Positions 1,726-64,000 of a stretch of 64,000 bases of DNA are shown in pieces. The notes under the pieces were generated by a model. It saw only the letters and a list, made by a program, of their open reading frames with translations, had not been told where the DNA came from and made no database searches. Numbering within the stretch: position 1 is the stretch's first letter; the number at the start of each line of letters is the position of its first letter. The stretch is from a virus. The position numbers and the translations under genes are program-made. Location: positions 27,060 through 91,059 of the IMG/VR virus record IMGVR_UViG_3300032291_003663, one strand, 5' to 3'.

Positions 1726-3168
1726 ATGAAAGAAGGTTATATTCCTCAAGAACAACGTAAAAAAATCTTACTATTATCGGATGACATTAGAACAACATCT
1801 GGTATAGCAACAATGGCAAGAGAGATAATTTTAGGTACTTGTCATCACTACAATTGGATAAATTTAGGAAGCACAATCCACAACCCAGATGAGGGTAAAA
1901 AATTAGATTTAAGTGCAGATTCTAACAACTTTAATGGAATAACAGACGCTAGCGTAATGTTATACCCCAATTCAGGATATGGTACTATTGAGAAGATCAG
2001 GGATTTACTACGAATAGAAAAACCAGATGCAATAATGTTATTTACGGATCCACGTTATTGGACATGGTTGTGGATGCATGAGCGTGAAATACGTGCTCAA
2101 GTTCCTATTATTTATCTTAATATTTGGGATTCTTTACCTTATCCGTTATATAATAGAGCTTTCTATGAGTCATGTGATGGTTTATTAGCAATTTCTAAAC
2201 AAACAGAAAATATTAATAACGTTGTATTAGCAGATAAAGCTAAAGATAAAGTTATAGGATACGTTCCTCATGGTATAAATGAAGATGTATTTTTTCCTAT
2301 TAAAAAAGGAGATGCTAAATGGGATGAACTTCAAACATTTAAAAAACAAATCTTTAAAGATAAAGAATACGATTTTATCTTAATGTTTAATTCTAGAAAT
2401 ATCAGACGAAAATCATTTCCTGATGTTCTATTAGCTTGGAAATTATTCGTAGATAATCTTCCTGAAGACAAAAAAGATAAAGTAGCTCTACTTGCTCATA
2501 CTCAACCACTAGATGAAAACGGAACAGACATTCCAGCTGTAATGGAAATGATATGGGGTAAAAACCCACCTAATGTGTTTATAACAGGTTTAAATAGATT
2601 TATTCCTGAACAAATGAACTTATTATACAATATATCAGATGCTACAATCTTGATTTCATCTAATGAAGGATGGGGATTGTCACTTACCGAAGCAATGATG
2701 TGTGGAAAACCAATTATTGCAAACGTAACAGGTGGTATGCAAGATCAAATGCGTTTTGAAGATGAAAATGGTAACTGGGTTAAATTTACAGAAGAATTTG
2801 GTTCAAATCACTTTGGAAAATATAAAAAATGTGGTAAATGGGCCTTTCCCGTATTTCCTTCAAATTTATCAATTGTAGGTTCAATTCCAACACCTTATAT
2901 ATTTGATGATAGAGCTGATTTTAGAGATGCTGCTAATCAAATGCGAGTACTGTATGATTTAGGTTCTGAAGAAATAGAAAATAGAGGAAATGCTGCTCGT
3001 AAATGGGTTACATCTGATGAGGCTATGATGACATCTAAGAATATGGCTAAAAACTATATTAAGTATACAGATGAAATGTTTGATAAATGGAAACCTAGAG
3101 AAAATTATGACTTTATAAAAATAGAAGAATTACCTGCAAAACAAAATAAACATATAATTTCGTTATGA
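1726..3168 (+). CDS. GT-B/GT4 glycosyltransferase
   Basis: VPHGIN, RNIRRK, EGWGLSLTEAMMCGKPIIA (ExFG-x4-EA-type motif). Confidence 0.9.
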   Translation: MKEGYIPQEQRKKILLLSDDIRTTSGIATMAREIILGTCHHYNWINLGSTIHNPDEGKKLDLSADSNNFNGITDASVMLYPNSGYGTIEKIRDLLRIEKPDAIMLFTDPRYWTWLWMHEREIRAQVPIIYLNIWDSLPYPLYNRAFYESCDGLLAISKQTENINNVVLADKAKDKVIGYVPHGINEDVFFPIKKGDAKWDELQTFKKQIFKDKEYDFILMFNSRNIRRKSFPDVLLAWKLFVDNLPEDKKDKVALLAHTQPLDENGTDIPAVMEMIWGKNPPNVFITGLNRFIPEQMNLLYNISDATILISSNEGWGLSLTEAMMCGKPIIANVTGGMQDQMRFEDENGNWVKFTEEFGSNHFGKYKKCGKWAFPVFPSNLSIVGSIPTPYIFDDRADFRDAANQMRVLYDLGSEEIENRGNAARKWVTSDEAMMTSKNMAKNYIKYTDEMFDKWKPRENYDFIKIEELPAKQNKHIISL

Positions 3169-4463
3169 ACAAACCACTTTGCGTAGTAAGCTGTCCAATA
3201 GACACATATAGCGGATACGGAGCTAGATCTCGTGATTTTGTAAAATCTCTTATCAAAGCTAAAGGAGATGAATGGGATATTAAAATTTTATCTCAACGAT
3301 GGGGATCTACTCCATTCGGTGCCTTAAATGAAGATATTAAAGAAGATTTAGATTTAAAAAATAGAATAATAGGAGCACTTACAATGCAACTTAACTTCCA
3401 ACCCTATGTGTGGATTCAAATTACAGTACCTAACGAGTTCCAACCATTAGGAAAACATAATATTGGAGTAACAGCTGGAATAGAAACAACTATTTGTGAC
3501 CACACATGGCTTGAAGGATGTAACAGAATGGATATTAATTTAGTATCATCTGAACATTCTAAAAAGATATTTGAAACTAGTAATTTTGAACACAAAAATA
3601 CTGCTGGTCAAACTGTTGAAAAATTTGAACTAAAAAAACCTATTGAGGTACTTTTTGAAGGTGCAGATCTGAACAAGTATTTCAAATCAGATACACTTAC
3701 TGATTTTAACATTTATGATGATTTAAATACAATTAGCGAATCATTTTGTTATTTGTTCGTAGGACATTGGTTACAAGGTGAATACGGCGAAGATAGAAAA
3801 AATATTGGATACATGATTAAAGCATTCCTAGAAGTATTTAAAAACAAGAAAAATAAACCAGCATTGATTTTAAAAATATCTCAAGGTGCTCCTTCAATTA
3901 TGGATAGAGATGTTATTTTAAAGAAAATAGAAGATATTAGAAATACCATAGCTGGAAAAGATTTACCAAACATATATCTTGTTCATGGAGATCTAAGTGA
4001 TGAAGAAATAAATTGTATTTATAATCACCCAAAAGTAAAAGCAATGATTTCATTTACTAAAGGTGAAGGATTTGGACGACCATTACTTGAATTTAGTGTT
4101 GTTGGAAAACCAATTATCGCTAGTGGATGGAGTGGACATTTAGATTTCTTAAATGCTGAATTTTGCGGATTAGTAGGGGGATCATTGAATAAGGTACATC
4201 CAAGTGCTGTTGTTCAAAATACACTACTTGCTGAATCAATGTGGTTTAGACCAGATGATAATCAATCTGGACACGCTCTCGATGATGTATTTAATAACTA
4301 TAAAGATTATCAAGAAAAGGCAAAACGATTAGCATATAGAAATAAACAAAATTTTTCATTAGATAAAATGACTGAAAAACTAGGTGAATTACTTAAACAA
4401 TACGTGCCAGAAACACCAAAACATGTTACTTTAAATTTACCTAAGCTTAAAAAAGTAGATTAA
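3165..4463 (+). CDS. GT-B/GT4 glycosyltransferase
   Basis: SGYG N-terminus, DRKN, EGFGRPLLEFSVVGKPIIAS. Confidence 0.9.
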   Translation: MNKPLCVVSCPIDTYSGYGARSRDFVKSLIKAKGDEWDIKILSQRWGSTPFGALNEDIKEDLDLKNRIIGALTMQLNFQPYVWIQITVPNEFQPLGKHNIGVTAGIETTICDHTWLEGCNRMDINLVSSEHSKKIFETSNFEHKNTAGQTVEKFELKKPIEVLFEGADLNKYFKSDTLTDFNIYDDLNTISESFCYLFVGHWLQGEYGEDRKNIGYMIKAFLEVFKNKKNKPALILKISQGAPSIMDRDVILKKIEDIRNTIAGKDLPNIYLVHGDLSDEEINCIYNHPKVKAMISFTKGEGFGRPLLEFSVVGKPIIASGWSGHLDFLNAEFCGLVGGSLNKVHPSAVVQNTLLAESMWFRPDDNQSGHALDDVFNNYKDYQEKAKRLAYRNKQNFSLDKMTEKLGELLKQYVPETPKHVTLNLPKLKKVD

Positions 4464-4490
4464 CATATATTTATATACAAAACACAAATC

Positions 4491-5514: not shown

Positions 5515-6132
5515 ATGCCTTCAATTAGTTATGCTATCACTGCTCATAATGAAGTAGATGAATTAATTAGACTACTAAACCAATTAGTCAATATTGCCAA
5601 TAAAGAGGATGAAATAATCATTCAGCTAGACTTAACAGCAACTATGGGGGTAAAATATATTATAGATGAATATCCCACTGTTAAAAATATTGAGTTTGGA
5701 TTAAATAAAGATTTTGCTTCATTTAAGAATAATCTAAAAAATAATTGTACTAAAGATTACATATTTTTTATAGATGCAGATGAATATCCTTCTACTCATT
5801 TAATTAAGTTACTCAAACAAGTATTAACATCTCACGCTGATATAGATTGTTTTGCTTTACCTAGAATCAATACGGTTGATGGTCTTACTCAAGAACATAT
5901 TCAAAAGTGGGGATGGGTAGTAGACAATAAAAATAGAATTAATTGGCCCGATTATCAAACTAGAATTTGCAAGAATATTCCTGATATAAAATGGGTAGGT
6001 AAAGTTCATGAACGACTAGAAGGATTTAAAATTATCTCTCATTTCCCTTCAGAATATGAAGAATGGGCTTTAATTCATCCTAAGACAATCAAACGGCAAG
6101 AAATACAAAATAATCTTTACTCGCAAATATAA
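5515..6132 (+). CDS. GT2 glycosyltransferase
   Basis: ISYAITAHNE, FFIDADE (DxD), WPDYQTR, WVGKVHE. Confidence 0.9.
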   Translation: MPSISYAITAHNEVDELIRLLNQLVNIANKEDEIIIQLDLTATMGVKYIIDEYPTVKNIEFGLNKDFASFKNNLKNNCTKDYIFFIDADEYPSTHLIKLLKQVLTSHADIDCFALPRINTVDGLTQEHIQKWGWVVDNKNRINWPDYQTRICKNIPDIKWVGKVHERLEGFKIISHFPSEYEEWALIHPKTIKRQEIQNNLYSQI

Positions 6133-6135
6133 GTT

Positions 6136-6771
6136 ATGGCAAACGGAATATATAAGATAACTGAGGATTTTGAAAAAGCATTATCTGATTACACAGGTGC
6201 TCCTTATGTGATTACAGTTGATAATCAAAGTAACGCTTTATTTTTAGCTTTAAAATACGAAAATATTAAAGGAGTAGAAATTACTATTCCTTCAAGAACA
6301 TATCCCTCCGTACCCTGTGAAATAATACATGCAGGCGGGAAAGTAAATTTTAGAAAAATTAAAGGTAAAACCATTAAAGGGGCATACCAATTAGCTCCTA
6401 CCAAAGTATGGGATAGTGCTTTAAGTTTTACTTACAATATGTACAAACCAAACACTCATATGTGTTTATCCTTTACAGGTCCGTATAAACATTTTAAATT
6501 AAGTAAAGGTGGAGCTATATTAACGGATGACTTTGATGCTTATAGTTGGTTTAAAAGAGCAAGATATAGTGGCAGAAGAGAATGCTCATACCATGATGAT
6601 AATCTCGACATGTTAGGATGGAATTTCTATATGATGCCAGAATTAGCAGCTAGAGGATTATTACTAATGAATCAATTTTATCATGGTGGTATTCCAAGAC
6701 ACAACTATGATTTAGAATTATCATACCCCGATTTATCTAAATTTCCTATTTACACTCAGAACCATGACTAA
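6136..6771 (+). CDS. short DegT/DnrJ/EryC1/StrS-family PLP sugar aminotransferase
   Basis: FEKALSDYTGA, WDSA, SFTGPYKH..GGAI, GWNFYM; only 211 aa. Confidence 0.8.
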   Translation: MANGIYKITEDFEKALSDYTGAPYVITVDNQSNALFLALKYENIKGVEITIPSRTYPSVPCEIIHAGGKVNFRKIKGKTIKGAYQLAPTKVWDSALSFTYNMYKPNTHMCLSFTGPYKHFKLSKGGAILTDDFDAYSWFKRARYSGRRECSYHDDNLDMLGWNFYMMPELAARGLLLMNQFYHGGIPRHNYDLELSYPDLSKFPIYTQNHD

Positions 6772-7471
6772 TAAGGTAGCTATAATGCAACCATATTTCG
6801 TCCCATATATAGGCTACTTTCAACTAATCAACTCAGTAGATAACTTTATTATATATGATAATATTCAATATACTAAAAAGGGATGGATTAATAGAAATAG
6901 AATACTAGTTAATGGGAATGATAAAGTAATAACCTTACCTCTAAAAAAGGATTCTGATTATTTAAATGTAATGGATAGAAAATTATCTGAATCTTGGGAC
7001 AAGGATAAAAGAAAAATGTTAAATCTAATACACGTTTCATATCGTAATGCTCCTTATTTTATAGAAGCATATGATGTAATTCAAAAATGCTTGTTGGATA
7101 CCGAAGAAAATTTATTTACCTTTATATTAAATAATTTAAAAAATATAAATAATTATCTTGAAATTAAAACATCAATTATAGCTTCATCTGAATTAGATAT
7201 CGATCACTCTCTTAAATCACAAGATAAAGTATTAGCTATTTGTAAAGTACGAAAAGCTACTAAATATATAAATGCTATTGGTGGTATTGAACTTTATAAT
7301 AAAGAAGAATTTAAAAAACAAGATATTGAATTAAATTTTATAAAATCAAGTCCTATAAGCTATAAACAATTTAATAATGAATTTGTCTCTTGGCTTTCTA
7401 TTATTGATGTAATGATGTTTAATTCTAAAGAAACTATTAAACAATATTTAAACTTATATACTTTAATATGA
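6764..7471 (+). CDS. wbqC: WbqC-like protein (putative glycyl transferase)
   Basis: AIMQPYFVPYIGYFQLI, QYTKKGWINRNRI, YINAIGG, LSIIDVMM. Confidence 0.9.
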   Translation: MTNKVAIMQPYFVPYIGYFQLINSVDNFIIYDNIQYTKKGWINRNRILVNGNDKVITLPLKKDSDYLNVMDRKLSESWDKDKRKMLNLIHVSYRNAPYFIEAYDVIQKCLLDTEENLFTFILNNLKNINNYLEIKTSIIASSELDIDHSLKSQDKVLAICKVRKATKYINAIGGIELYNKEEFKKQDIELNFIKSSPISYKQFNNEFVSWLSIIDVMMFNSKETIKQYLNLYTLI

Positions 7472-8028
7472 AAAGTATACCCCACTATTACGAAAACATC
7501 CAAGGATGGTTTAGTTTTTCTAAATTATACTCTCATGTAGTACAGAAATATCCTAATGGAAGCCATTTTATAGAAGTTGGAGTATGGAAAGGCACATCAG
7601 CATCATACATGGGAGTTGAAATATATAACTCTGGTAAAAATATTAAATTTGATTGTATCGATCCATTTGTACCTGTAAAAAATGATATGCCTGAATTTGA
7701 AATAACTCATAAAGATTTAAAAAATACATTTATTAACAATATGAAGCCACTTAAAGGCTACTACAATCTCATACTAACCGGATCTCCAGAATGCACAGAA
7801 TTATATAAAGATAAATCCGTTGATTTCGTTTTCATTGATGGTGATCATTCATATAGTGCTGTTATGCAAGATATAAAAGCATGGCTTCCTAAAATGAAAC
7901 CAGGAAGTATTCTTGCAGGTCACGATTACGCATTTCCCGAAGTAAGAAAAGCATGTCATGATGTTCTTGGAGAAAAAAATTGGAGTGATCCTTTTGAATG
8001 TGATTGTTGGATGGTAGAAATTGAATAA
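7468..8028 (+). CDS. class I SAM methyltransferase (Methyltransf_24-like)
   Basis: EVGVWKGTS, FVFIDGDHSY, GSILAGHDY. Confidence 0.9.
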   Translation: MKSIPHYYENIQGWFSFSKLYSHVVQKYPNGSHFIEVGVWKGTSASYMGVEIYNSGKNIKFDCIDPFVPVKNDMPEFEITHKDLKNTFINNMKPLKGYYNLILTGSPECTELYKDKSVDFVFIDGDHSYSAVMQDIKAWLPKMKPGSILAGHDYAFPEVRKACHDVLGEKNWSDPFECDCWMVEIE

Positions 8029-8029
8029 T

Positions 8030-8986
8030 ATGAAATGGAAAAAATTAGGTAGGATATTTAATCCTCAAGATTATCAAACAGAGTGGATGAAAGAATTTGC
8101 TCAATGTACTAGTGCATTGGTGTTTGATACTTACGTTAGAATTTACTTTAGTTGTCGTCCTGAAAAAGATAAAGAGGGACAAGCAAAATCATACACTGCT
8201 TTTATAGATGTTGATAGAAATAATTTATTTAATATAATAAATGTAGCTAAAGAACCTATATTGCCACTTGGTGAATTAGGAACATTTGATGAATTTGCAG
8301 TATATCCTACTTCTGTGTTTAGAGACTATGAGGACATAAAATTATATTATGCTGGATGGAATAGGATGAAATCAGTACCATTTAATACATCAATTGGTTT
8401 AGCTATAAGTAAAGATGGAGGTACAACATTCAATAGAATAGGAGCTGGCCCCATATTGTCTGCTAGCACTGATGAACCATTTGTTATTAGTGGTCCTAAA
8501 GTAAGAAGATTTAATGGAATACTGTATATGTTCTACTTAGCAGGAACTAAATGGATAGAACATGAAGGTAAACCGGAAATTATTTATAAACTTAAAATGG
8601 CTGTTTCTAAAGATGGAATGCATTGGACTAAAATAAATAAAAATATTGTAAGTGATATTCTAGAAGAAAATGAATGCCAAGCAGGTCCTGATGTGTTTTA
8701 TCATAATGGAAAATACCATATGTACTTTATTTACAGATATGCGTTAGATTTTAGAAACAATAGAGGCAGGGGATACCAAATAGGATACGCATATTCAGAC
8801 GACCTAATCAAATGGACACGAGATGATGAAAATGTAGGAATACATTATTCCGAACCAGGTGAATGGGACGGGGACATGCATCATTATCCCCATGTGTTTG
8901 AATTAGATGGAAATCATTACATGTTATATAATGGAAACGAATTTGGTAAATATGGCTTTGGCCTTGCAATTTTAGAAAATGAATAA
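8030..8986 (+). CDS. five-bladed beta-propeller glycoside hydrolase-like protein (GH32/43/130-type fold)
   Basis: WKKLGRIF, repeated SxDG..W Asp-boxes, YMLYNGNEFGKYGFGLA; ATG at 8030 preferred over TTG at 8021. Confidence 0.75.
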   Translation: MKWKKLGRIFNPQDYQTEWMKEFAQCTSALVFDTYVRIYFSCRPEKDKEGQAKSYTAFIDVDRNNLFNIINVAKEPILPLGELGTFDEFAVYPTSVFRDYEDIKLYYAGWNRMKSVPFNTSIGLAISKDGGTTFNRIGAGPILSASTDEPFVISGPKVRRFNGILYMFYLAGTKWIEHEGKPEIIYKLKMAVSKDGMHWTKINKNIVSDILEENECQAGPDVFYHNGKYHMYFIYRYALDFRNNRGRGYQIGYAYSDDLIKWTRDDENVGIHYSEPGEWDGDMHHYPHVFELDGNHYMLYNGNEFGKYGFGLAILENE

Positions 8987-10145: not shown

Positions 10146-10150
10146 ATAAT

Positions 10151-45846: not shown

Positions 45847-46136
45847 TTATGATAGTACTATCTATTATTTTATTTTTAGCAACCTCTCTTTTGGGATATA
45901 TTGCTTATAATCTTTTTAAAAAAGTTGAAAAACTAGAAAAAATTGTTGATTCGCAAGAACAATATATTACTAAATTTTCTAGTGCTGTAGACTATACTAA
46001 TAAAAAGTTAGAAGCTATTGATGCTAAGGGAACCTTTGAATCAGACGACGAAGTTGGCTGGTTCTTTGAAAGTGTAAAAACATTACAAAGAGAATTAAAT
46101 GATTTCAATACCAACGAAAGACGCAGAGGTCAATAA
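45837..46136 (+). CDS. N-terminal TM plus coiled-coil protein
   Basis: TM helix; GTFESDDEVGWFF. Confidence 0.75.
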   Translation: MELIMIVLSIILFLATSLLGYIAYNLFKKVEKLEKIVDSQEQYITKFSSAVDYTNKKLEAIDAKGTFESDDEVGWFFESVKTLQRELNDFNTNERRRGQ

Positions 46137-53496: not shown

Positions 53497-53852
53497 TGGC
53501 TGAAAATATTCCTGTTCAACATGCTATATATGACAAGAATAGATTTTCTAAGGTTATTGATACGCAGTTTAGAGAATTAAATATAACTGAGCCGGTTGCC
53601 CCCGAAGTAACAATTGAAGATTTTTTTGTCTTATATGATGAATTATTTTTCTCTATTCCTAGCGAAGGAAATATTAATTCTCATAGATATATTTTAAATA
53701 AAGAAGCAGAATATTTAGGTGTAAAATTTGCTGATGATGTTGATATTCAAGCTTTGTTACAAGAAATAACAGACTTAAGACAACAATTATTAGCAGCAGA
53801 AACAGACAACGCAGGTTTATTAGAACAAATAGCAAATACAACAAATGGCTGA
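53496..53852 (+). CDS. hypothetical structural protein
   Basis: Translationally coupled within the baseplate operon. Confidence 0.7.
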   Translation: MAENIPVQHAIYDKNRFSKVIDTQFRELNITEPVAPEVTIEDFFVLYDELFFSIPSEGNINSHRYILNKEAEYLGVKFADDVDIQALLQEITDLRQQLLAAETDNAGLLEQIANTTNG

Positions 53853-56800
53853 TAATATTAAAATAGTAGGTCAGATTTTAAATACCGATATAATAAATCG
53901 TTATACGTTACAGGATGAGCAATTACTTCTTCCTTCTATACAGCAAGAAACTTTTGGCCAATCTAATGATTATATAGAATATTTCGTATTTGATCTCGGA
54001 GGCACAGTATTAAATTCAGATTACAACTACCAGGCATATAAATTACCTGCTAATGTTGGTTACTCTCAAAGTTTATTACCTGTTCTTGAAATAGACCCCA
54101 TTCAAGATATTGAAAATCTTGGATATGAATCCGGTGAAGTTACATCTAGATATAATTTCTTTAGAAAAATATACGGTGAACCTTTTCTTAATCAGATATT
54201 TATTCAACAAATATCTACAGATAGGACCGAAATTAGAGTAAATTCAACCGTTTATTCTCCCGAAGTATTATTATCTATTGCAAGCGAGTTTACTCAAAAA
54301 CAAGCTACTGTTCCCTATTACTACTATGTAATATTAAATTTTGGTAATAATAACCAAGTAATAGCCGTAAATTCATTAGCTAGTGTTAGTGATACCGGTG
54401 AAGCTAGTGTATTATTTAAATTATCTGAGCCCCTTCCTAATAATATAGGCTTAAAAGATACATTTTGGATTGTAGAAGAAATAGTTAATCCTTATATATT
54501 TGATCTTAATTTAGATAAATTAATATCTCCTCTTCCTCAACCTAGATTACAAGGGCCTAATTTTGATATTGAATTACAATTAAAAAATGTAGTTCCTACT
54601 CCATATAACAATTATGATCAACTTATATCTTCTCTAACAGGTTCATATTATCAAGTTGTTCTTAATCTAATTAACAATCAGAATACTGATATAAACATAA
54701 ATTATAGTAATCTTAACGACTTTGTCCACTACAGTTCGGCTGAGAATAGATTATATAACTTTATGTATAAGGTGGGGGAACTTGAGACATACCAGACAGA
54801 AATTAATGTTAGCACTCCTTTAACATCAAGTAATCCTTCCTTAGCAAGTTCCGTAAATAGGGCTAGTTCAAGCATAAATGAAATTATATCTAAATTTGAT
54901 GGATTTGAATCTTATTTATATTTTTATTCAAGTTCACTAACATCCTCTATACAAAATATTGTTTTAGAAACAGGATCTTACTTAGAATATTATGTGTCCC
55001 CATACCCTAAATCAGACTCTGATCAACCTTATATTTTATATCCTTCATCTTCTGTTACTGTTCAAAGTTGGTATTCAACTGCTTCTAATGTAGCGGTTGC
55101 ATATGATATTGATAATAAAGATATATTAATAGATACTATACCATCTTATATAAAAGAAGATACAAATAATTATCTTCCATATATTGTTTTTGTTAATATG
55201 ATAGGCCAATATTTTGATAATATTTGGATCTATATTGATAAATTAACAGATTTATGGGATAACGATAATAATTTAAATAAAGGTATATCTCAAGACTTAG
55301 TATATAATTGGTTACAATCTTTTGGAATAAAATTATATAATTCTCAAGGAAATCAAAATGTATTAGACTATAGAGTAGGTGGATATAGTGGTAGTATTGA
55401 TTTTAATAGTGATTATTCACCATCAAGTAGTTTTTTAAATAGTACACCTAGAAAAGATTTAGTACTAGATACATACAAAAGATTATATCATAATTTACCT
55501 TATTTATTTAAAGCTAAAGGAGCACATGGTGGTTTACAAGGTTTAATAAGCGTATTTGGTATTACCGGTTCTATTCTTCCTATTAAAGAATATGGAGGAA
55601 TGACAAACCAGCAAGATTTAAAAGGATATACTACAGATAAAATTACTTTAGGTGGCAATGCTATTACAGGTAGTATTTTATCCTCTATAAAACGTTTAGA
55701 AACATCTCCTACATCATCTACAAAAATTAAAAGCCAAGATGTACATTTTATAGATGTTTCTTTTTCACCGCAAACTCAAATAGATGCCGCTGTGTCTGCT
55801 TCTATTTCTGCCGTATCAGCATCGACATGGATTTTAGATAATTATATTGGTGATCCAAGAGATTTATATTTAAATACTTATCCTTCATTATCATATCAAA
55901 GAGATTATTGGTTTGGACAAACATTTGACGATCCCTTTGATTATGGAGGATTCATAAGACTAATACAGTTTTTTGATAATTCATTATTTAAAATGGTTAA
56001 AGATTTCACACCGGCTAGAGCTAATACTTGGACCGGAGTATCTATGAAATCGCCTGTATTAGAACGACCTAAAGTAATCCAATATGCTCCTAAATTTTCT
56101 CAAACCAATGAATTTTCTGGTACTACAGATAGTGCATCATTAGTACCTGTATATGATCCGTATTACTACTATTTAGCTGGGGATAAATTACCATATTATG
56201 ATGGTAATATATCGGGTTCAACTATTGATACTTATGTTTATTTTGAAGAAAATAACCGAAATCCCTACTTAGTAAATAATACAGTGGGATATATACCCCC
56301 CGGGTTTGTAAGCGGGAATACCGACTTTGTCTTAAATTATAACGCCCCAAGGTATGAGAATTTCTACCTAAACTCAGATTTTAACGCTATACAAAATAAT
56401 GTAGATGAAAGTTTAACATCTGAATATAGAAAAAAAATTACTCCTATATTGTCTGTAGATAATTTAGGAAGATGTTTTGAATCATATTCAATAACTGAGT
56501 CTGTCCAACTTCAAGATTCATATTTGTCATTAACGGCACATACGCGTCCTAGATATAGTGGTGTGCAATTATATGGGCAATTATATAATACATGGTCTGT
56601 TGGGGATATAACATATGGTACTTCTCCTGTTATTAATTATTATGTTAAGAAATTAGGATTATTTACTGAGGTGGTAGCCAATCGTTATGTGCCTTTTAAA
56701 AGTAATGCTGTTTTAAAATATCTTGTAGACGAAACAGGTAGACTTACTGAGCTAAATAAGCGTAATAGAAATTGGGTTGAAGTACAAAATACTTTTGAAA

Positions 56801-58443
56801 CTGGGGATTTTTTAAATGTATCCTTATTTGACTCTCAAAAGTTTAGTAATCAAACTCAAACTAATGGAAATAAACTAATTGCAGAAAGTGGATATTCTTA
56901 TTCTCCTGTATTTTATGCTTATGGAGAAGAAATAAGTAGTAATCCTACAATATCATCAAGCTGGTCAGCGTCTGCTGTATTTACTAATCCTTTTGGAGAC
57001 TCTCAAAATCTACTGGCTAGATTTTTCACAATAAATACTCAGACAGGAAGTTTAATTCCTGCAAATAGCATATTTTTATCTTCAAGCTATACTAGTTCTA
57101 GTACAGTAAACATGTTTGAAGTGTGGAATTTATTTAATTTTACTGGTTCTGCTTCTAATTTAGGAAGTTATTTTTATACGGGATCAGGTCCGAATAATGG
57201 TATTACATCATTAACTTCCTCTTACTATATTATTCCATCAGAAGGAAGTTATGAGTTTAATTATGATTTTACTCTTCAAGCTACTGCTTCTACCGATACA
57301 CCAAAAAGTTTTACAGCTAGTATGGAACTGTGGTTGAGCAGCTCAACTAATTATACTCTTTTAGATAAAAATAAAATCTCAGCATCTTATATTCCGGGAG
57401 GTTATTATCAAGCCTACTTAAAAAGTGTTCCTAATGGTTATTATTATTATGATTTCCAACCAGGCACAAATATTGTTACTTTAGAAGGTGGGAATAGTTT
57501 ATATGAATATTCAACAAATAATACTACTCCTTTTAGAATTACTACTCTTAGTGTAGATACATCATATAGAGAATGGAGAATATTCGGGTATGTCGCTAAT
57601 CCACTGCCTGGGTATCCTCCTACTATTGTCAGTCTCGGTCGTTTCTTTGCTATTACAAGTGCTTCACCAGATCAGTATAATTATTCTTCTATAACATGGT
57701 ATAATGCTATAAATTCTTATTTAACAACAGGAGTAGGAAATAATTCTTTTTTGTTTAGACGAACAATAAATTTAAATACTAGTGGTTCTGCAAACCCTGG
57801 AGATGCTATAGAATTTAGATTCTTCATAGATTCTAACACTACAGGCATGACATCTGTATCTATGAAAACGGGAGGAGTATTAAAAGCCACAGCTACTAAT
57901 AATGCTTTGTTTTCTAATAATACTGATGTGTGTGTTGATCAGACCGAAAATGCTTTTTATTTAAGTAGTAGCTTAAATCCATTTTATGGTCCTTCAAGTT
58001 TCTTTGATCCTTTAAATTCTACAGTATCTGCTTCTTATTCCACCTTATATAATGAATATGGTGATATTTTTTATCCATTTCTTTTAGAAGAAAATGATAA
58101 AATAGTAGTTCAAGCTAGTGGGTCAAGCGGGCCTATTGTAGAATATACCGTTTTACCTAATTTTATTCAAGGCGGTACAGATTATGTCTATATCCCGGTT
58201 AAAGAAGACATAGCCGGATATTTCGGTAATATGAACTGTGGTCAATATTATAAGATATTATTCTTAAAAAGAATAGTAGATGAAACAAGTGTTATATTAA
58301 ATTTTCCAAAACCTTCTGGGAAAACATCTTATGGTTTTATAATTCCTCAAAATATAAACCCGGATGTATTGGCTAATATTGATATGATTACTAAAAATGT
58401 TAATCAACAATTAGTAGACGTTGGAGTTGGGGTAACAACATAA
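53845..58443 (+). CDS. large baseplate/tail structural protein (1532 aa)
   Basis: MIGQYFD, NLPYLFKAKG...FGI (wedge-protein-like); Ser/Thr-rich beta domains. Confidence 0.7.
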   Translation: MADNIKIVGQILNTDIINRYTLQDEQLLLPSIQQETFGQSNDYIEYFVFDLGGTVLNSDYNYQAYKLPANVGYSQSLLPVLEIDPIQDIENLGYESGEVTSRYNFFRKIYGEPFLNQIFIQQISTDRTEIRVNSTVYSPEVLLSIASEFTQKQATVPYYYYVILNFGNNNQVIAVNSLASVSDTGEASVLFKLSEPLPNNIGLKDTFWIVEEIVNPYIFDLNLDKLISPLPQPRLQGPNFDIELQLKNVVPTPYNNYDQLISSLTGSYYQVVLNLINNQNTDININYSNLNDFVHYSSAENRLYNFMYKVGELETYQTEINVSTPLTSSNPSLASSVNRASSSINEIISKFDGFESYLYFYSSSLTSSIQNIVLETGSYLEYYVSPYPKSDSDQPYILYPSSSVTVQSWYSTASNVAVAYDIDNKDILIDTIPSYIKEDTNNYLPYIVFVNMIGQYFDNIWIYIDKLTDLWDNDNNLNKGISQDLVYNWLQSFGIKLYNSQGNQNVLDYRVGGYSGSIDFNSDYSPSSSFLNSTPRKDLVLDTYKRLYHNLPYLFKAKGAHGGLQGLISVFGITGSILPIKEYGGMTNQQDLKGYTTDKITLGGNAITGSILSSIKRLETSPTSSTKIKSQDVHFIDVSFSPQTQIDAAVSASISAVSASTWILDNYIGDPRDLYLNTYPSLSYQRDYWFGQTFDDPFDYGGFIRLIQFFDNSLFKMVKDFTPARANTWTGVSMKSPVLERPKVIQYAPKFSQTNEFSGTTDSASLVPVYDPYYYYLAGDKLPYYDGNISGSTIDTYVYFEENNRNPYLVNNTVGYIPPGFVSGNTDFVLNYNAPRYENFYLNSDFNAIQNNVDESLTSEYRKKITPILSVDNLGRCFESYSITESVQLQDSYLSLTAHTRPRYSGVQLYGQLYNTWSVGDITYGTSPVINYYVKKLGLFTEVVANRYVPFKSNAVLKYLVDETGRLTELNKRNRNWVEVQNTFETGDFLNVSLFDSQKFSNQTQTNGNKLIAESGYSYSPVFYAYGEEISSNPTISSSWSASAVFTNPFGDSQNLLARFFTINTQTGSLIPANSIFLSSSYTSSSTVNMFEVWNLFNFTGSASNLGSYFYTGSGPNNGITSLTSSYYIIPSEGSYEFNYDFTLQATASTDTPKSFTASMELWLSSSTNYTLLDKNKISASYIPGGYYQAYLKSVPNGYYYYDFQPGTNIVTLEGGNSLYEYSTNNTTPFRITTLSVDTSYREWRIFGYVANPLPGYPPTIVSLGRFFAITSASPDQYNYSSITWYNAINSYLTTGVGNNSFLFRRTINLNTSGSANPGDAIEFRFFIDSNTTGMTSVSMKTGGVLKATATNNALFSNNTDVCVDQTENAFYLSSSLNPFYGPSSFFDPLNSTVSASYSTLYNEYGDIFYPFLLEENDKIVVQASGSSGPIVEYTVLPNFIQGGTDYVYIPVKEDIAGYFGNMNCGQYYKILFLKRIVDETSVILNFPKPSGKTSYGFIIPQNINPDVLANIDMITKNVNQQLVDVGVGVTT

Positions 58444-59165: not shown

Positions 59166-60194
59166 ATGTCATTTGTAAGATACAACCCAGAAGATTCTGT
59201 AGTAAGTACTGAAACCGTAGTAAGACCAATGTGGAGTGGTGACACAAATGTGTTGGCTACTTATTATACTTCTAGTGCTATTACTAGTTCATTTTATTTA
59301 AACGTATATGCTGAATATCCTGGTGCTCTAACTTCTACCTCAGCTTCTGTTCAGTTTGCTACTCAATATGGTAACATGTATGGTAGTGGTGCTGCTTATA
59401 TTAGCCCATCAGTAACTAACCAATTGCCAGATAGTTCATCGATTACTAATTCTAGAGTTGTTTACGGGCAATATAGAACATTGTTGTTAGGAACAGAAAG
59501 CGGAAGCTTTCAATTTGGAGACGATACGCCACAAGGTATTTATATAATCAACATAGCTAGAAATAGATATAAAGAACATACCCAACCTGGTTCAATGACA
59601 TTAAAGTTAGAAAATGGTGCATATGAAGTTGTTTTAACAGATAATAGCCAAATAACATCAACAACTAATTATACAACAGCTGGTACTTTATACTATACTT
59701 TAATTAGTGGTAGTGCAGGTGTTCCTTATGGCAACGCGACAGGAATGTCTAATTCAACATACGGGATTTTATTCCCAGATGACGATATTATTATATTAAA
59801 TCCAACCGCATTGTCTAGATCGATTGTTAATGGAGGTATTTTTTTCGACCCAACAGTTAATACTCCAGGAACAGATAATAATTTAGATTTTCAATTTTAT
59901 ACATTGATATCTTCTAGTGCTTATTTTGGATTACAATCGGCTGAGAATGTTTCTTCTCATTATTTCTTTACAAGAATAAAAAATCAGGATTTTAATTACA
60001 CAACAAATCCCTCTATTATAGATAATAATGGTAATTTACTTTATTCTACATTAATTAACAATCCTCAAACATTTATAACAACTGTTGGATTGTATAATAA
60101 TAATAATGAATTATTAGCGGTTGCCAAATTGAGTAGGCCTTTAGTAAAAGATTTTACCAAAGAAGCCTTAATTAAAGTAAAATTAGACTATTAA
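59166..60194 (+). CDS. baseplate/tail-collar-type structural protein
   Basis: C-terminal ITTVGLYN...LLAVAKLSRPLVK. Confidence 0.65.
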   Translation: MSFVRYNPEDSVVSTETVVRPMWSGDTNVLATYYTSSAITSSFYLNVYAEYPGALTSTSASVQFATQYGNMYGSGAAYISPSVTNQLPDSSSITNSRVVYGQYRTLLLGTESGSFQFGDDTPQGIYIINIARNRYKEHTQPGSMTLKLENGAYEVVLTDNSQITSTTNYTTAGTLYYTLISGSAGVPYGNATGMSNSTYGILFPDDDIIILNPTALSRSIVNGGIFFDPTVNTPGTDNNLDFQFYTLISSSAYFGLQSAENVSSHYFFTRIKNQDFNYTTNPSIIDNNGNLLYSTLINNPQTFITTVGLYNNNNELLAVAKLSRPLVKDFTKEALIKVKLDY

Positions 60195-60215
60195 TCTTAA
60201 TAATAATGTTAATGC

Positions 60216-61214
60216 ATGGGATCCTTCAAAAAGTTAAAATCTTCAGATGTTATAACAATACCTGTTATAGCTAATAAACAGTGGAATTTTAACTATTGTC
60301 CTCTACCTCTAAGTGATCCCTATATTGATTTCTATAATGGTACTAACTTATCAGGAACTTTTAATCCTACTACGGACCCTATAACTAATGGGCAATATGA
60401 TAGATTAATATATGATTCTATAAATCAATTATTCTATCATCAATATTCCGGCAGTATATCTACTGCCTCTTTGGCGTCTTCTTTATATTATGCTACAGCT
60501 ACGGGACTAAGGCCAACTGCTTCTTATTTTAATTTTAATGATGATCCTGCTTTTATAAATTATTTCCCAACAGGGATAAATGAATCTATAAAAGTTCTTT
60601 CCATATCTACAAACTTATACGGCCAAAGAATTTTACCATATAGTTTTCAACTGACTTCATCTACATATCTTTTTACAGATGATGGAAAAGGTAATGTTTA
60701 TGATAGTGATACTACCCATGTGGGGAATGTATTTTATCCTGAAGGTATTTTTGTACTAACAAATCAAGATTATCAAGGAATATTCCCATCAACTCCTATT
60801 GCTTATGATGATGTTATATTCATTACTAGAAGTGATTATGGCAATCCTGTTACTTTATCTATTTCTCCTTTAGTAAATGATGACCTAAGAGGAAATACCC
60901 TTGTAAATCAATCAATTAAACTTTCAGGACCAAATATTAGTAATTTTAGTACAGGGTCTAATAATACGGTATCAATGTCATTTAGTGGATTAGGAACCGG
61001 AGTGTATCAAACATATTATACATTTAATGTAACGGGTTCTTATTGTGGGATGCTAACAAGCAATACAGCAAGCATAGTTATTACCGTATTAGACCCGGAT
61101 TGTGAATTTGAAATGAGTTTAGCATCGTTTTCAAAGATAATACTAGCTTCTCCATTTATGAGTGGTAGTCAAGTTTATGTAAGCTTTACAGATTTTACAG
61201 GATCTTTGGGATAA
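60216..61214 (+). CDS. virion structural protein with Ig/cadherin-like C-terminus
   Basis: DDGKGN, GNVFYPEG, PIAYDD...PLVND. Confidence 0.65.
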   Translation: MGSFKKLKSSDVITIPVIANKQWNFNYCPLPLSDPYIDFYNGTNLSGTFNPTTDPITNGQYDRLIYDSINQLFYHQYSGSISTASLASSLYYATATGLRPTASYFNFNDDPAFINYFPTGINESIKVLSISTNLYGQRILPYSFQLTSSTYLFTDDGKGNVYDSDTTHVGNVFYPEGIFVLTNQDYQGIFPSTPIAYDDVIFITRSDYGNPVTLSISPLVNDDLRGNTLVNQSIKLSGPNISNFSTGSNNTVSMSFSGLGTGVYQTYYTFNVTGSYCGMLTSNTASIVITVLDPDCEFEMSLASFSKIILASPFMSGSQVYVSFTDFTGSLG

Positions 61215-61239: not shown

Positions 61240-64000
61240 ATGGCCTATACTAGTGCTTCATTTGATGTTACTGCTTCAGTATTATACGTAGATCAAGCGT
61301 ATATATATAATTCTATTGACGTCATAATAAACACATACAATATAAGTGGTAGTGCTTCATTTTCTCCTGTCCCTTCAGCAACATATAATCCATTTATATA
61401 TGCTGTAAATCCGGTAGAAAAAAATAGTACTATTATAGTATTTACTCCTCCTCCAACACCTACTACTACATCAACTCCTTCTATTACACCAACAAGGACT
61501 ATTACTCCAACAAAAACCATAACACCGACTATAACACCTAGTCCAACGATTACAGCAACACCTACTATTACTCCAAGTAGAACTATTACACCGACTATAA
61601 CAGCAACACCTACTATTACTCCAACTGTAACTATTACACCAACTATAACAACAACACCTACTATTACTCCAAGTAGAACTATTACCCCCACGGTAACTAT
61701 TACACCAACTATCACGACAACACCAACTATTACGCCAACAAGAACTATTACACCAACTTTAACTATAACACCTACTGTTACTATCACACCTACTGTTACT
61801 GAAACTCCTACTATTACTCCTAGTCCTAGTATTACACCAACATTAACGATAACACCAACGGTTACTGTAACTCCAAGTATAACTGCTAGTCCTAGTATTA
61901 CACCTAGTTTAACAATAACACCAACTATTACTGCTACTCCAACAATAACAGCAACACCGACTATTACTGCTTCTCCTTCTATTACGCCAACGAGAACTAT
62001 AACTCCTACTGCAACTATAACTCCAACTGTTACTATTACACCTAGTTTAACAATAACACCAACTATTACTGCTACTCCAACAATAACCGCGTCGCCGAGT
62101 ATAACACCAACAAGAACAATTACTCCGACTGTAACTGAGACTCCGACTGTAACACCAACAGCAACTATAACTCCTACAACAACTATAACATCAACTATTA
62201 CTGCTACTCCTTCAATTACACCAACACTTACAATTACTCCGAGTGTAACTGTTACTCCAAGTATAACTGCTAGTCCTAGTATTACACCAACATTAACAAT
62301 AACACCGACTTTAACTATAACTCCAACTGTAACATCAACAGCATCTATTACACCTACTGTTACAATTACACCAACTATAACAGGAACTCCTTCGATCACA
62401 CCAACATTAACGATAACACCAAGTGTAACAATAACACCGAGTATAACAGCATCTCCAACTATAACTCCAACTATTACAGTTACACCAACTATAACAGGAA
62501 CCCCTAGTATAACACCTACTTTAACTGTTACTCCAACAATAACATCAACACCAACTATTACAGCATCACCTTCTATTACACCGACAAGAACTATTACTCC
62601 TACTGTAACTATAACACCAACTGTAACGCCAACCATTACTGCAACTCCTTCTATAACACCAACTTTAACTGTTACACCTACTATAACAGCATCTCCAACT
62701 ATAACTCCTACTGTTACAGTTACACCAACTATAACTAAAACACCAACAATTACATCAACGGCTTCGATTACACCAACGTTAACAATTACACCTACTATTA
62801 CTTCAACACCAACTATTACACCTACTTTAACGATAACACCAAGTGTAACAATTACACCTACTATTACTCCAACTCTTACTATTACTCCTAGTGTAACTGT
62901 TACTCCGAGTATAACACCAACAAGAACAATAACTCCAAGTTTAACTGTTACTCCAACAATAACAACAACAAGAACAATTACACCAACATCAACAATTACT
63001 CCAACATCAACAATTACTCCAAGTATTACACCAACATTAACGATAACACCATCACCAACAATAACATCAACTCCAACAATAACAGCAACACCAACTATAA
63101 CACCATCAATTACTGCTTCTCCTTCTATAACACCAACAAGAACTATATCAGCAACACAACCCTATTATCCAGGTGCTGATTATATAGTATTCCAATACAC
63201 CTTAGCTCCAGGAGCGGGGGTTGATTTAGATACACTAACAACTCTAGTAGATCCTGTCACCGCCGGTCCTATGGGTTATTGTGTTGATGGAAGTTTAGCA
63301 TCTGGGGCTTGGGGTGGTCCTTATTTATATTGGGGAGGAGATAATACAACATCCGGAGGAACAGAGACTAATTATGTCGATCTTATTGCTTTAAAAGCTG
63401 CTTATCCTAGTATGACTCAAGCTGAGTTAACTTGTAGAGCAAACTGGTTTAGTACTAGAGGAAATGGAGATGTTTTTATAACTATGTATGCATACCAAGG
63501 TGGTACCATGGTTAGTAATGGTAATTTTGGATTTACAAATACAGGAGGTACATTAATAGGGACACGTGAATTCCCAACAGTCAATGTAACAGCAGTTAAT
63601 AATACATGTACGACTACGGATTGTGTAGGAACATATGTTTATAATATTTCAAGTGGTTTATTTACAAAAATTGATTGTGTAGAACCAAGTCCAACACCTA
63701 CTGTAACACCTACACTTACTATAACTCCAAGTATAACACCAACAAGGACTATAACACCAAGTATAACAGCAACACCGTCAATAACACCAACAGTAACAAG
63801 GACTATAACACCAAGTATAACAGCAACACCGTCAATAACACCAACAGCAACAAGAACACAAACACCTAGTATAACAGCAACAAGAACAATAACACCGTCT
63901 ATAACATTAACACCGTCAATCACAGCAACAAGAACAGTAACACCAACAAGAACAATAACACCGAGTATAACAGCAACATCTAGTATAACACCAACACCTA
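61240..64000 (+). CDS. mucin-like Thr/Pro-repeat virion protein (partial, >920 aa; missing from ORF track)
   Basis: Open frame from ATG 61240 to window end: MAYTSASF..., about 570 aa of (T/S-x)n, globular domain 63160-63684 (DLD..WGGDNT..E), then a second repeat. Confidence 0.9.
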   Translation, partial: MAYTSASFDVTASVLYVDQAYIYNSIDVIINTYNISGSASFSPVPSATYNPFIYAVNPVEKNSTIIVFTPPPTPTTTSTPSITPTRTITPTKTITPTITPSPTITATPTITPSRTITPTITATPTITPTVTITPTITTTPTITPSRTITPTVTITPTITTTPTITPTRTITPTLTITPTVTITPTVTETPTITPSPSITPTLTITPTVTVTPSITASPSITPSLTITPTITATPTITATPTITASPSITPTRTITPTATITPTVTITPSLTITPTITATPTITASPSITPTRTITPTVTETPTVTPTATITPTTTITSTITATPSITPTLTITPSVTVTPSITASPSITPTLTITPTLTITPTVTSTASITPTVTITPTITGTPSITPTLTITPSVTITPSITASPTITPTITVTPTITGTPSITPTLTVTPTITSTPTITASPSITPTRTITPTVTITPTVTPTITATPSITPTLTVTPTITASPTITPTVTVTPTITKTPTITSTASITPTLTITPTITSTPTITPTLTITPSVTITPTITPTLTITPSVTVTPSITPTRTITPSLTVTPTITTTRTITPTSTITPTSTITPSITPTLTITPSPTITSTPTITATPTITPSITASPSITPTRTISATQPYYPGADYIVFQYTLAPGAGVDLDTLTTLVDPVTAGPMGYCVDGSLASGAWGGPYLYWGGDNTTSGGTETNYVDLIALKAAYPSMTQAELTCRANWFSTRGNGDVFITMYAYQGGTMVSNGNFGFTNTGGTLIGTREFPTVNVTAVNNTCTTTDCVGTYVYNISSGLFTKIDCVEPSPTPTVTPTLTITPSITPTRTITPSITATPSITPTVTRTITPSITATPSITPTATRTQTPSITATRTITPSITLTPSITATRTVTPTRTITPSITATSSITPTP
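61444..63156 (+). repeat. coding low-complexity repeat (TPTI/TPS units)
   Basis: 12- and 18-nt degenerate units with synonymous variation. Confidence 0.9.

What the first reader, a model, noticed from the sequence alone, without database searches (positions are those of the whole stretch)
1726..64000. Candidate phage-encoded virion O-glycosylation system: glycan locus plus sequon-rich structural proteins
Seen: nine GT-like genes, nucleotide-sugar enzymes (RfbH-, RfbD-, DegT-like) and tailoring enzymes (WbqC, GNAT, two methyltransferase domains, PhyH-like) occur with structural proteins loaded with [ST][GAS]S and a mucin-like protein. The glycan block and the HtrL-like GT follow the putative late motif ATATTTATA (1480, 4467, 21063). 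No Wzx/Wzy/Gtr-type membrane proteins are in the window, which serotype conversion would normally need. Established: virion glycosylation by phage GTs is known in some actinobacteriophages and giant viruses. Inference: this phage builds an O-antigen-like glycan coat on its own particle.
Basis: partly seen in the sequence, partly recalled or inferred. Interest (0 to 1): 0.82.

Follow-up and report, generated by a model that had tools for sequence, protein, structure and literature searches.

The report
Phage sugar-coating genes and mucin-like fibre
A large uncultured phage, probably of Bacteroidota, carries about 30 kb of soluble sugar-building enzymes and a threonine/proline "mucin-like" tail protein, so it probably sugar-coats its own appendages, but no sugar has been measured.

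Summary
The window is the last 64 kb of a 91-kb fragment, about half of a ~170-kb myovirus. It carries a real 16-kb block of soluble glycan genes. Four tail-region proteins are enriched in [ST][GAS]S, and one fibre protein of at least 920 aa is built of (T/S)ITPT repeats.

No polytopic membrane protein occurs here or in a complete relative. DNA glycosylation is unlikely. No thymidylate-synthase homologue is present, and published LC-MS of the cultured relative immuto found only a 7-deazaguanine change.

The strongest evidence lies just upstream of the window. Two GT60 (PF11397) enzymes there have a predicted fold closest to animal mucin-initiating GalNAc-transferases. In other phages this gene sits directly after Ser/Thr/Pro-repeat genes far more often than chance. 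A GT60-free relative has no such repeat protein.

The window's own block behaves separately. Its GT4 pair is core to the lineage and travels with the motif-rich tail proteins, but this link is confounded by descent. Its 4-kb centre is unique to this phage.

Virion self-glycosylation is the best reading (about 0.6) and is unproven. The "sequon" is the weakest part. The same scan noted GT60-plus-mucin modules on at least 202 other genomes.

The parts
1726..3168 (+). GT4-type glycosyltransferase (GT1a), core gene of the lineage
   Evidence: PF00534 E 7.8e-13. Best PDB sequence hit is chlorovirus NY-2A B736L. Homologues in immuto 58%, Mel-JY01 41%, RM378 28%. E-x7-E motif present.
3165..4463 (+). 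second GT4-like glycosyltransferase (GT1b), overlapping the stop of GT1a
   Evidence: PF00534 E 1e-5, just under the cut-off. Paralogue of GT1a at E 3e-7 and retains E-x7-E. Conserved in G001, G002, G006 and G009.
5515..6132 (+). GT2 glycosyltransferase
   Evidence: PF00535 E 1.3e-12; conserved in all lineage genomes.
6136..6771 (+). short (211 aa) DegT-like protein, N-terminal part of the fold only
   Evidence: PF01041 matches profile positions 24-98 only. The same short form occurs in immuto (214 aa, 75% identity), G001 and G002.
6764..11014 (+). variable cassette: WbqC, methyltransferase, GH43/GINT1_N-like, GNAT+methyltransferase fusion, PhyH-like dioxygenase
   Evidence: Pfam. No nucleotide match in G001-G005. 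No protein match in G001, G002, G006, G009 or G010, apart from 25% identity to the methyltransferase.
11707..13727 (+). RfbH-like 3-dehydrase and short RmlD-like reductase (deoxy-sugar pathway)
   Evidence: NF011936 E 3e-108; rmlD E 3e-20. In G009 the orthologues (80% and 51%) follow the GT60 pair directly.
13696..16218 (+). DUF707-like protein (weak) and two GT2 glycosyltransferases
   Evidence: Pfam.
21085..22068 (+). HtrL_YibB-like protein (lead only)
   Evidence: No Pfam or NCBIfam hit. Atlas feature score 0.97 to PF09612-bearing clusters. Local match to the HtrL region of the 1033-aa protein, E 0.002. Homologues sit beside GT60 in several phages.
46099..46899 (+). sigma-70 region-2-like protein, candidate phage sigma factor
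   Evidence: PF04542 E 3.9e-5, 23.8 bits against a 24 cut-off. Followed by ATATTTATA at 46915.
50561..52372 (+). baseplate wedge (gp6/J-like) protein, the anchor for calling this region 'tail'
   Evidence: PHROG 6 and 219, E 1.6e-21. 43% identity to the annotated baseplate wedge protein of immuto.
52405..53496 (+). motif-rich tail protein with two beta-sandwich domains (CBM-like plus Ig/MG-like)
   Evidence: 8 motifs, z 5. AF2 model pLDDT 81.6. Foldseek hits to a chondroitin-sulfate-binding CBM, an alginate-binding CBM and the Epf adhesin domain. 7 of 8 motif sites lie in loops or at strand edges.
53845..58443 (+). 1532-aa motif-rich distal tail protein
   Evidence: 36 motifs against 7 expected, z 11.6. 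Context is hydrophobic-[ST]-[GAS]-S-hydrophobic. Motif density is kept in 20 homologues.
59166..61214 (+). two motif-rich tail proteins (342 and 332 aa)
   Evidence: z 3.6 and 4.7. Ser/Thr inside motifs are more conserved than outside: 0.91 vs 0.79 and 0.90 vs 0.62.
61240..63999 (+). mucin-like fibre protein: a 70-aa conserved N-terminal domain, about 570 aa of (T/S)ITP(T/S) repeats, a 175-aa Cys-containing globular domain, then more repeats; open at the contig end
   Evidence: The N-terminal domain is 47-69% identical in syntenic genes of relatives, while the globular domain has no match. No signal peptide or TM segment.
1480..1488 (+). ATATTTATA upstream element; other copies at 4467, 16201, 17968, 18408, 21063, 45190, 46915 and 58464
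   Evidence: conserved at orthologous sites in G001.

Best explanation
The phage encodes a self-contained cytoplasmic protein O-glycosylation system for its own tail appendages. Phage enzymes make unusual nucleotide sugars. They include a beta-phosphoglucomutase-like/nucleotidyltransferase fusion, an RfbH-like dehydrase, an RmlD-like reductase and a DegT-like protein. Others add methyl, acetyl and carbamoyl groups.

Two GT60 enzymes lie 14-16 kb upstream of the window. They most likely start chains on Thr/Ser of the long Thr/Pro-repeat fibre protein before it is assembled. Soluble GT2, GT4 and HtrL-like transferases then extend the chains. The likely result is a stiff, protease-resistant 'bottle-brush' fibre whose glycan differs between closely related phages.

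Shown here: the enzyme families, the GT60 fold, the lack of membrane components, the gene linkage and the island's variability. Inferred: the acceptor, the sugars, the timing and the benefit.

Whether the GT4 pair also glycosylates the [ST][GAS]S-rich tail proteins is a weaker, separate inference (about 0.3).
For: 1. GT60 identity. PF11397 E 2e-68 and 1e-55. A D-S-H triad is invariant in 41 sequences. The AF2 model has pLDDT 91.6. Its top ~40 PDB matches are all polypeptide GalNAc-transferases (E 1e-11, probability 1.0). GT60 starts mucin-type O-glycosylation in protists (PMC8724618).
2. Linkage. In 47 dereplicated GT60 loci, 6 have a Ser/Thr/Pro-repeat ORF within 100 nt upstream on the same strand, and 2 more at 243 and 280 nt. 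Permutation gives 0.41 expected and no shuffle reached 6.
3. Whole genomes. GT60 and repeat proteins are both present in G000, G001, G002, G009 and G010. Both are absent in G006.
4. In G009 the RfbH/RmlD orthologues sit inside the GT60 operon.
5. No polytopic membrane protein in the window or in the complete relative G001.
6. A shared, conserved upstream element precedes glycan and tail genes.
7. Xanthomonas phage XacN1 encodes a GT60 homologue (42% identity). Its virions show at least two Schiff-positive protein bands (PMC5852040).
8. The fibre protein has no signal peptide, so the host's periplasmic glycosylation cannot reach it.
Against: - No chemical evidence exists for this phage or its close relatives.
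- GT60 is not next to the repeat gene in this genome; they are about 75 kb apart on the contig.
- XacN1-type phages have GT60 but no repeat protein within 9 kb, so the acceptor class is not universal.
- The presence/absence pattern rests on a single GT60-free genome.
- The window's own block also occurs without GT60 or repeat proteins (G006, immuto), so its target may differ.
- Virion membership of the repeat protein rests on gene position and a conserved N-terminal domain only.
- Thr/Pro linkers exist without glycosylation.
Confidence: 0.6

Rival explanations
1. Host-surface remodelling. The soluble enzymes act on host undecaprenyl-linked intermediates and use the host's own flippase and polymerase. 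This would alter O-antigen or capsule during infection, for example to block superinfection or stop progeny re-adsorbing to lysed cells.
For: The enzyme set (RfbH, RmlD-like, WbqC, DegT, GT2, GT4) is what O-antigen loci contain. The variable central cassette resembles O-antigen locus variation. O-antigen GTs are themselves soluble or peripheral. The block persists in immuto/G006 without GT60 or mucin-like proteins.
Against: No priming transferase, flippase, polymerase or Gtr-type protein occurs in a complete relative. All genomes look strictly lytic. The block shares its upstream element with tail genes. In G009 the RfbH/RmlD genes are embedded in the GT60 operon next to repeat proteins.
Confidence: 0.2
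2. Only the mucin-like fibre is glycosylated. The [ST][GAS]S enrichment would then be a structural signature of the beta-sandwich tail proteins of this lineage (short turns between strands), not a sequon.
For: The motif is flanked by hydrophobic residues on both sides. It lies at strand edges or loops in the model. Its middle position is not conserved in places (consensus VSQSW). In the 363-aa protein, motif Ser/Thr are no better conserved than others: 0.57 vs 0.61. RM378 has the GT4 pair but only weak enrichment.
Against: Enrichment is strong (z up to 11.6). It is kept at 13-36 per 1000 aa across homologues down to 32% identity. It is absent from T4 tail proteins. It co-occurs with the GT4 pair in every genome examined. 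Motif Ser/Thr are more conserved in three of four proteins.
Confidence: 0.45
3. DNA hypermodification. The transferases would add sugars to phage DNA bases to evade restriction.
For: Phage GTs classically act on DNA. The contig carries FolE, a QueD-type PTPS and a dCTP-deaminase-like gene, so the DNA is probably modified in some way.
Against: There is no thymidylate-synthase homologue to create a hydroxyl-bearing pyrimidine in G000, G001 or G002 (this requirement is described in PMC13326640). In immuto, which shares the GT4 block, LC-UV-MS/MS found dA, dC and dT canonical and dG fully replaced by the non-glycosylated fdPreQ1 (PMC10516641). G001 and G002 carry a DpdA homologue, pointing to the same 7-deazaguanine chemistry. 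The GT60 fold matches peptide-acting enzymes.
Confidence: 0.04

Closest known systems
Protist CAZy GT60 polypeptide alpha-GlcNAc-transferases (Dictyostelium and Trypanosoma cruzi mucin initiators; cytoplasmic Gnt1 acting on Skp1)
   Same: Strong PF11397 match. GT-A fold nearest to GT27 mucin initiators. Invariant D-S-H triad. No lectin domain. Soluble like Gnt1. Associated with Thr/Pro-rich acceptors, as T. cruzi mucins are.
   Different: Encoded by a phage, usually as a tandem pair, with an extra ~100-aa beta-rich C-terminal domain. No prolyl-4-hydroxylase in this lineage, so a Skp1-type hydroxyproline route is unlikely. Donor and acceptor are untested.
Giant-virus autonomous glycosylation (chlorovirus capsid glycans; Mimivirus/Megavirinae fibril glycans) - from my own knowledge
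   Same: The virus encodes both nucleotide-sugar pathways and soluble GTs. No membrane machinery is involved. Bacterial-type rare sugars are made. Gene clusters differ between clades. The best PDB sequence hit of GT1a is a chlorovirus GT.
   Different: The host is a bacterium. The presumed acceptor is a Thr/Pro-repeat tail fibre rather than capsid protein or capsid fibrils. No glycan structure is known.
Actinobacteriophage virion O-glycosylation (mycobacteriophage capsid and tail-tube glycans) - from my own knowledge; cited by papers listed
   Same: Phage-encoded GTs modify the phage's own structural proteins in the cytoplasm.
   Different: Those systems use one or two GTs next to the capsid genes. 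Here there are more than 25 genes, a GT60 initiator and mucin-like acceptors, in a myovirus probably of Bacteroidota.
Xanthomonas jumbo phage XacN1 (PMC5852040)
   Same: GT60 homologue (42% identity) followed by a carbamoyltransferase and lying near the DNA polymerase, as here. Its virions stain for glycoproteins.
   Different: No Ser/Thr/Pro-repeat protein near GT60. The stained bands were not identified. There is no large glycan island.

Membership tests
CAZy GT60 / Pfam PF11397 polypeptide GlcNAc-transferases | Sequence match to the family model above its curated cut-off | tested here: met
   231.9 and 189.8 bits against a cut-off of 21. The genes lie upstream of the window, at genome 10690-13268.
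CAZy GT60 / Pfam PF11397 polypeptide GlcNAc-transferases | GT-A fold related to GT27 with a D-x-H metal-binding motif | tested here: met
   D100-S101-H102 is invariant in 41 sequences. The top ~40 Foldseek hits are ppGalNAc-transferases. That D-x-H is the Mn site of GT27 is from my own knowledge.
CAZy GT60 / Pfam PF11397 polypeptide GlcNAc-transferases | Transfers GlcNAc from UDP-GlcNAc to Thr/Ser or hydroxyproline of a polypeptide | not testable with these tools
   Needs an enzyme assay. Only gene linkage to Ser/Thr/Pro-repeat genes is available.
Wzx/Wzy- or GtrABC-type serotype conversion | Polytopic membrane flippase, polymerase or GtrA/GtrB, or a priming phosphoglycosyltransferase | tested here: not met
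   Hydropathy scan: at most 3 segments in this contig, and at most 4 (in a 113-aa protein) in the complete relative G001. The test is by hydropathy only, not by profile search.
Phage DNA glycosylation (T4 glucosyl-hmC; RB69/DLP3 arabinosyl-5hoC) | Thymidylate-synthase homologue that makes a hydroxyl-bearing pyrimidine | tested here: not met
   PF00303 is absent from G000, G001 and G002, and the control search found it in 10 of 14 genomes. LC-MS of immuto DNA shows no sugar (PMC10516641).
Serine-rich-repeat adhesin glycosylation (GtfA/GtfB) | A catalytic GT4 paired with a non-catalytic GT-B partner, acting on S-x-S repeats | tested here: inconclusive
   An adjacent GT4 pair exists, but both members keep the E-x7-E motif. 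PDB sequence searches return a chlorovirus GT rather than GtfA/GtfB. I do not file it here.
Giant-virus autonomous virion glycosylation | Virus-encoded nucleotide-sugar synthesis plus soluble GTs, with clade-specific clusters | tested here: met
   Searches show the enzymes. Searches show the variable cassette. A glycan on the particle is not shown.

The most novel reading that the evidence does not exclude
This lineage may run two separate self-glycosylation systems. The first is an ancient core GT4 pair with a hypervariable 'serotype' island, decorating Φ-[ST]-[GAS]-S-Φ sites (Φ = hydrophobic residue) on distal tail proteins. The second is an accessory GT60/HtrL module that is gained and lost together with giant mucin-like fibres. 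Closely related phages would then differ in virion glycan type much as bacteria differ in O-antigen.
Probability: 0.25. Interest if true: 0.85.

Novelty: new variant of a known kind. Interest (0 to 1): 0.68.

Why it matters
Protein glycosylation of phage particles is documented only in a few actinobacteriophages, and hinted at by staining in XacN1.

If this reading is right, a large and environmentally abundant group of phages builds mucin-type glycoproteins in the bacterial cytoplasm. The GT60 homologue search alone scored more than 7,400 protein clusters at E below 1e-5. These phages would be using relatives of the enzymes that start mucin glycosylation in eukaryotes, together with strain-specific glycan islands.

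That would bear on how phages adsorb, how they resist proteases and grazers, and how virion surfaces diversify. It would also offer soluble, membrane-free enzymes for making O-glycoproteins in bacteria.

Two cultured phages make the idea directly testable: immuto for the GT4 block, and XacN1 for GT60.

Tried and rejected
- Megablast of the structural half against cultured phages found nothing.
- PHROGs and Pfam left nearly all tail proteins unnamed.
- A PDB sequence search for GT60 gave no hit, so I used a fold search.
- GtfA/GtfB analogy for the GT4 pair: not adopted. Both members keep the catalytic E-x7-E motif and no GtfA/GtfB hit appeared.
- Skp1-type hydroxyproline route: rejected for this lineage. 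No P4H-type dioxygenase is present, and the PhyH-like gene sits in a cassette unique to this phage.
- 7-deazaguanine insertion via a Pfam TGT search found nothing. BLAST with immuto DpdA then found homologues in G001 and G002, so the Pfam negative was a sensitivity limit.
Every relative sharing these tail proteins has the pair.
- RM378 as a distant test was ambiguous.
- The globular domain of the fibre protein has no homologue in the fetched loci, so I did not fold it.
- The bacterial-genome scan returned a single metagenome-assembled contig (Ginsengibacter sp.) that looks like phage DNA.
- The minus-strand ORF 61293-62636 is a shadow of the repeat DNA.
Full report
WHAT THE DNA IS

The window is bases 27060-91059 of a single 91,059-bp viral contig. 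It is 30% G+C, and the gene-like ORFs all lie on the plus strand. CheckV rates the contig 53% complete.

Close relatives in IMG/VR reach 174,437 bp with direct terminal repeats (G001, rated 100% complete) and 165,861 bp (G002). Gene order in G001 shows that the head and the rest of the tail lie beyond the contig ends.

Two cultured relatives share the baseplate wedge protein: Flavobacterium phage vB_FspM_immuto (43% identity) and Microcystis phage Mel-JY01 (41%). The host is therefore probably a member of Bacteroidota, though this is not shown.

THE OBSERVATION

Pfam and NCBIfam confirm a contiguous, tightly packed block from 1726 to 16218:
- two GT4-type and three GT2 glycosyltransferases (GTs);
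- a short DegT-like protein, WbqC, and a class-24 methyltransferase;
- a GNAT-methyltransferase fusion and a PhyH-like dioxygenase;
- an RfbH-like dehydrase (E 3e-108) and a short RmlD-like reductase.

Three further GT-like calls are weak: DUF707-like, GINT1_N/GH43-like, and the HtrL-like 21085-22068. The tally is 5 solid plus 3 weak, not nine.

The [ST][GAS]S enrichment exceeds composition-matched shuffles, but only in the four proteins that follow the baseplate wedge and in the repeat protein. The 1532-aa protein has 36 sites against 7 expected (z 11.6). The hub and wedge proteins next door have none. T4 baseplate and fibre proteins show no enrichment either. The local context is hydrophobic-[ST]-[GAS]-S-hydrophobic.

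The last gene, 61240 onwards, has four parts. A 70-aa N-terminal domain comes first, then about 570 aa of (T/S)ITP(T/S)-type repeats. A 175-aa Cys-containing globular domain follows, then more repeats, and the gene runs off the contig.

ATATTTATA is not over-represented as a word (13 copies against 9.4 expected). Its placement is significant. In the whole contig, 11 of 15 plus-strand copies lie 11-22 nt before a start codon, in a genome that is 94% coding. The element is retained at orthologous sites in G001 although the flanks have diverged. It precedes glycan genes (1480, 4467, 16201, 21063) and tail genes (45190, 46915, 58464; a one-mismatch copy lies before 52405). It differs from the repeated promoter-like element of the small-gene array at 27.5-41.5 kb. 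'Late' is therefore a reasonable but untested label. A sigma-70 region-2-like protein at 46099-46899 is a candidate cognate factor.

WHAT LIES OUTSIDE THE WINDOW AND CHANGES THE PICTURE

The 27 kb upstream carry more glycan genes:
- a beta-phosphoglucomutase-like/nucleotidyltransferase fusion and another methyltransferase;
- a NodU-type carbamoyltransferase;
- a 1033-aa methyltransferase/HtrL_YibB fusion;
- two tandem PF11397 (CAZy GT60) enzymes (E 2e-68 and 1e-55).

GT60 is the family of polypeptide alpha-GlcNAc-transferases that start mucin-type O-glycosylation in protists (PMC8724618).

An alignment of 41 phage homologues has an invariant D-S-H triad. The AlphaFold model is confident (pLDDT 91.6). 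Its best ~40 matches in the whole PDB are all polypeptide GalNAc-transferases from human, mouse, fly and Toxoplasma (E about 1e-11). The family model found no match in 14 control bacterial and archaeal genomes.

GENE LINKAGE

I fetched 80 viral loci around GT60 homologues and dereplicated them at 90% nucleotide identity into 47 clusters. Nineteen have a Ser/Thr/Pro-repeat ORF within 10 kb. In six the ORF ends within 100 nt upstream of GT60 on the same strand, and in two more the gap is 243 or 280 nt. Random placement gives 0.41 such cases, and no shuffle in 2000 reached six. At a 3-kb radius the excess is not significant (p 0.10), so the signal is immediate adjacency. A homologue of the HtrL part of the 1033-aa protein accompanies GT60 in 59 of the 80 loci.

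Across (near-)complete genomes the pattern is as follows:

| Genome | GT60/HtrL | Repeat proteins |
|---|---|---|
| G000 | present | at least 1 |
| G001 | present | 3, up to 2354 aa |
| G002 | present | 6 |
| G009 | present | 2, adjacent to GT60 |
| G010 | present | 2 |
| G006 (immuto-like, 95% complete) | absent | none |

This is a single negative case, so the correlation is suggestive only.

In G009 the orthologues of the window's RfbH-like and RmlD-like genes (80% and 51% identity) follow the GT60 pair directly. This ties part of the window's pathway to the GT60 operon.

THE WINDOW'S OWN BLOCK BEHAVES AS A SEPARATE MODULE

The GT4 pair is core to the lineage. It is present in G001, G002, G006, G009, immuto, Mel-JY01 and even Rhodothermus phage RM378, and absent from the unrelated GT60-bearing G010.

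Every genome with the pair has 5-9 motif-rich tail proteins, and G010 has none. These genomes also share the tail genes by descent, so this is not an independent correlation. RM378 shows only weak enrichment.

Ser/Thr inside motifs are more conserved than those outside in three of the four proteins. In the modelled 363-aa protein, seven of eight sites lie in loops or at strand edges. That protein has two beta-sandwiches resembling carbohydrate-binding modules and an adhesin. These facts fit either a sequon or a structural turn motif.

The centre of the block (6764-11014) has no counterpart in five close relatives, whereas both flanks are 70-86% identical at the protein level to G001. It behaves as a variable island.

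RIVALS

DNA glycosylation is unlikely.
- Known routes need a thymidylate-synthase homologue to supply a hydroxyl on the base (PMC13326640). None is present in G000, G001 or G002.
- Immuto shares the GT4 block. Its DNA was analysed by LC-UV-MS/MS: dA, dC and dT were canonical, and dG was fully replaced by 7-(formylamino)methyl-7-deazaguanine, with no sugar (PMC10516641).
- This contig has FolE and a QueD-type enzyme, and G001 and G002 have DpdA homologues. The lineage's DNA modification is therefore of that kind.

Classical serotype conversion lacks its defining parts. No protein in the complete relative has more than four hydrophobic segments. A looser version, in which soluble phage enzymes feed the host's own export machinery, cannot be excluded. 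It is the main rival for the window's block, because that block persists where GT60 and repeat proteins are absent.

EXPERIMENTAL PRECEDENT

Xanthomonas jumbo phage XacN1 encodes a GT60 homologue (42% identity). It is followed by a carbamoyltransferase and lies near the DNA polymerase, as here. Its authors saw at least two Schiff-positive bands among virion proteins and attributed them to the phage's two GTs (PMC5852040). XacN1 has no repeat protein near GT60, so the acceptor there is unknown.

VERDICT

Self-glycosylation of virion appendages is the best reading (about 0.6). The mucin-like fibre is the likeliest acceptor, and GT60, which lies outside the window, is the likeliest initiator. The [ST][GAS]S 'sequon' is real as a sequence feature but unproven as a glycosylation site.

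I found no paper describing GT60-mucin systems in phages. Virion glycosylation by phage or viral GTs is a known kind, so I rate this a new variant of a known kind.

Notes from this same scan report GT60-plus-mucin modules in at least 202 other genomes. This window is therefore one more instance. Its particular contributions are the separate core GT4 module, the variable island and the published DNA chemistry of a cultured relative.

Noticed in passing
genome 7486-10650 (upstream of the window; L001): FolE, a phosphoribosyltransferase-like 138-aa protein, a QueD-type PTPS and a dCTP-deaminase-like gene. Relatives G001 and G002 carry DpdA homologues just beyond this contig's 5' end. The cultured relative immuto replaces all dG with fdPreQ1, so this phage's DNA probably carries a 7-deazaguanine base.
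   Followed up: partly
window 46099-46899: A 266-aa protein with a near-threshold sigma-70 region-2 match, directly upstream of the baseplate genes and followed by an ATATTTATA copy. It is a candidate phage sigma factor for that promoter class.
   Followed up: no
window 27500-41500: Array of about 40 small genes, each preceded by a similar promoter-like element (…TATATTTA/TACATTTA…AAAGGTT ATG) that differs from the ATATTTATA class. Probably the early genes.
   Followed up: no
window 20088-21048: One tRNA-Leu(TAA) found by ARAGORN, inside a G+C-richer non-coding stretch that other notes describe as tRNA-like RNAs. I did not examine it.
   Followed up: no
window 6136-6771: A stable 211-aa protein that keeps only the first ~80 residues of the DegT fold. 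The same short form is conserved in immuto, G001 and G002, so it is not a recent truncation. Its function is unclear.
   Followed up: partly
G010:C1:44559-44810: An unrelated GT60-bearing phage has a prolyl-4-hydroxylase-type dioxygenase about 2-4 kb from its GT60/HtrL genes. That hints at a hydroxyproline-linked variant there, which is absent from this lineage.
   Followed up: no
genome 24442-26073 (upstream of the window; L002): Phage-encoded GroEL-type chaperonin (PF00118, E 1.7e-68). It is also present in immuto and XacN1.
   Followed up: no
window 61293-62636 (minus strand): A 447-aa ORF opposite the repeat gene. It is a stop-free shadow of the ACN/CCN-rich repeats, not a gene.
   Followed up: partly
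L182 (Ginsengibacter sp. MAG contig JBDTZL010000286.1): The only bacterial-genome hit for GT60a is a 23-kb contig with three Ser/Thr/Pro-repeat ORFs upstream of GT60. It is probably phage DNA binned into a Chitinophagaceae MAG, which gives a weak host hint.
   Followed up: partly
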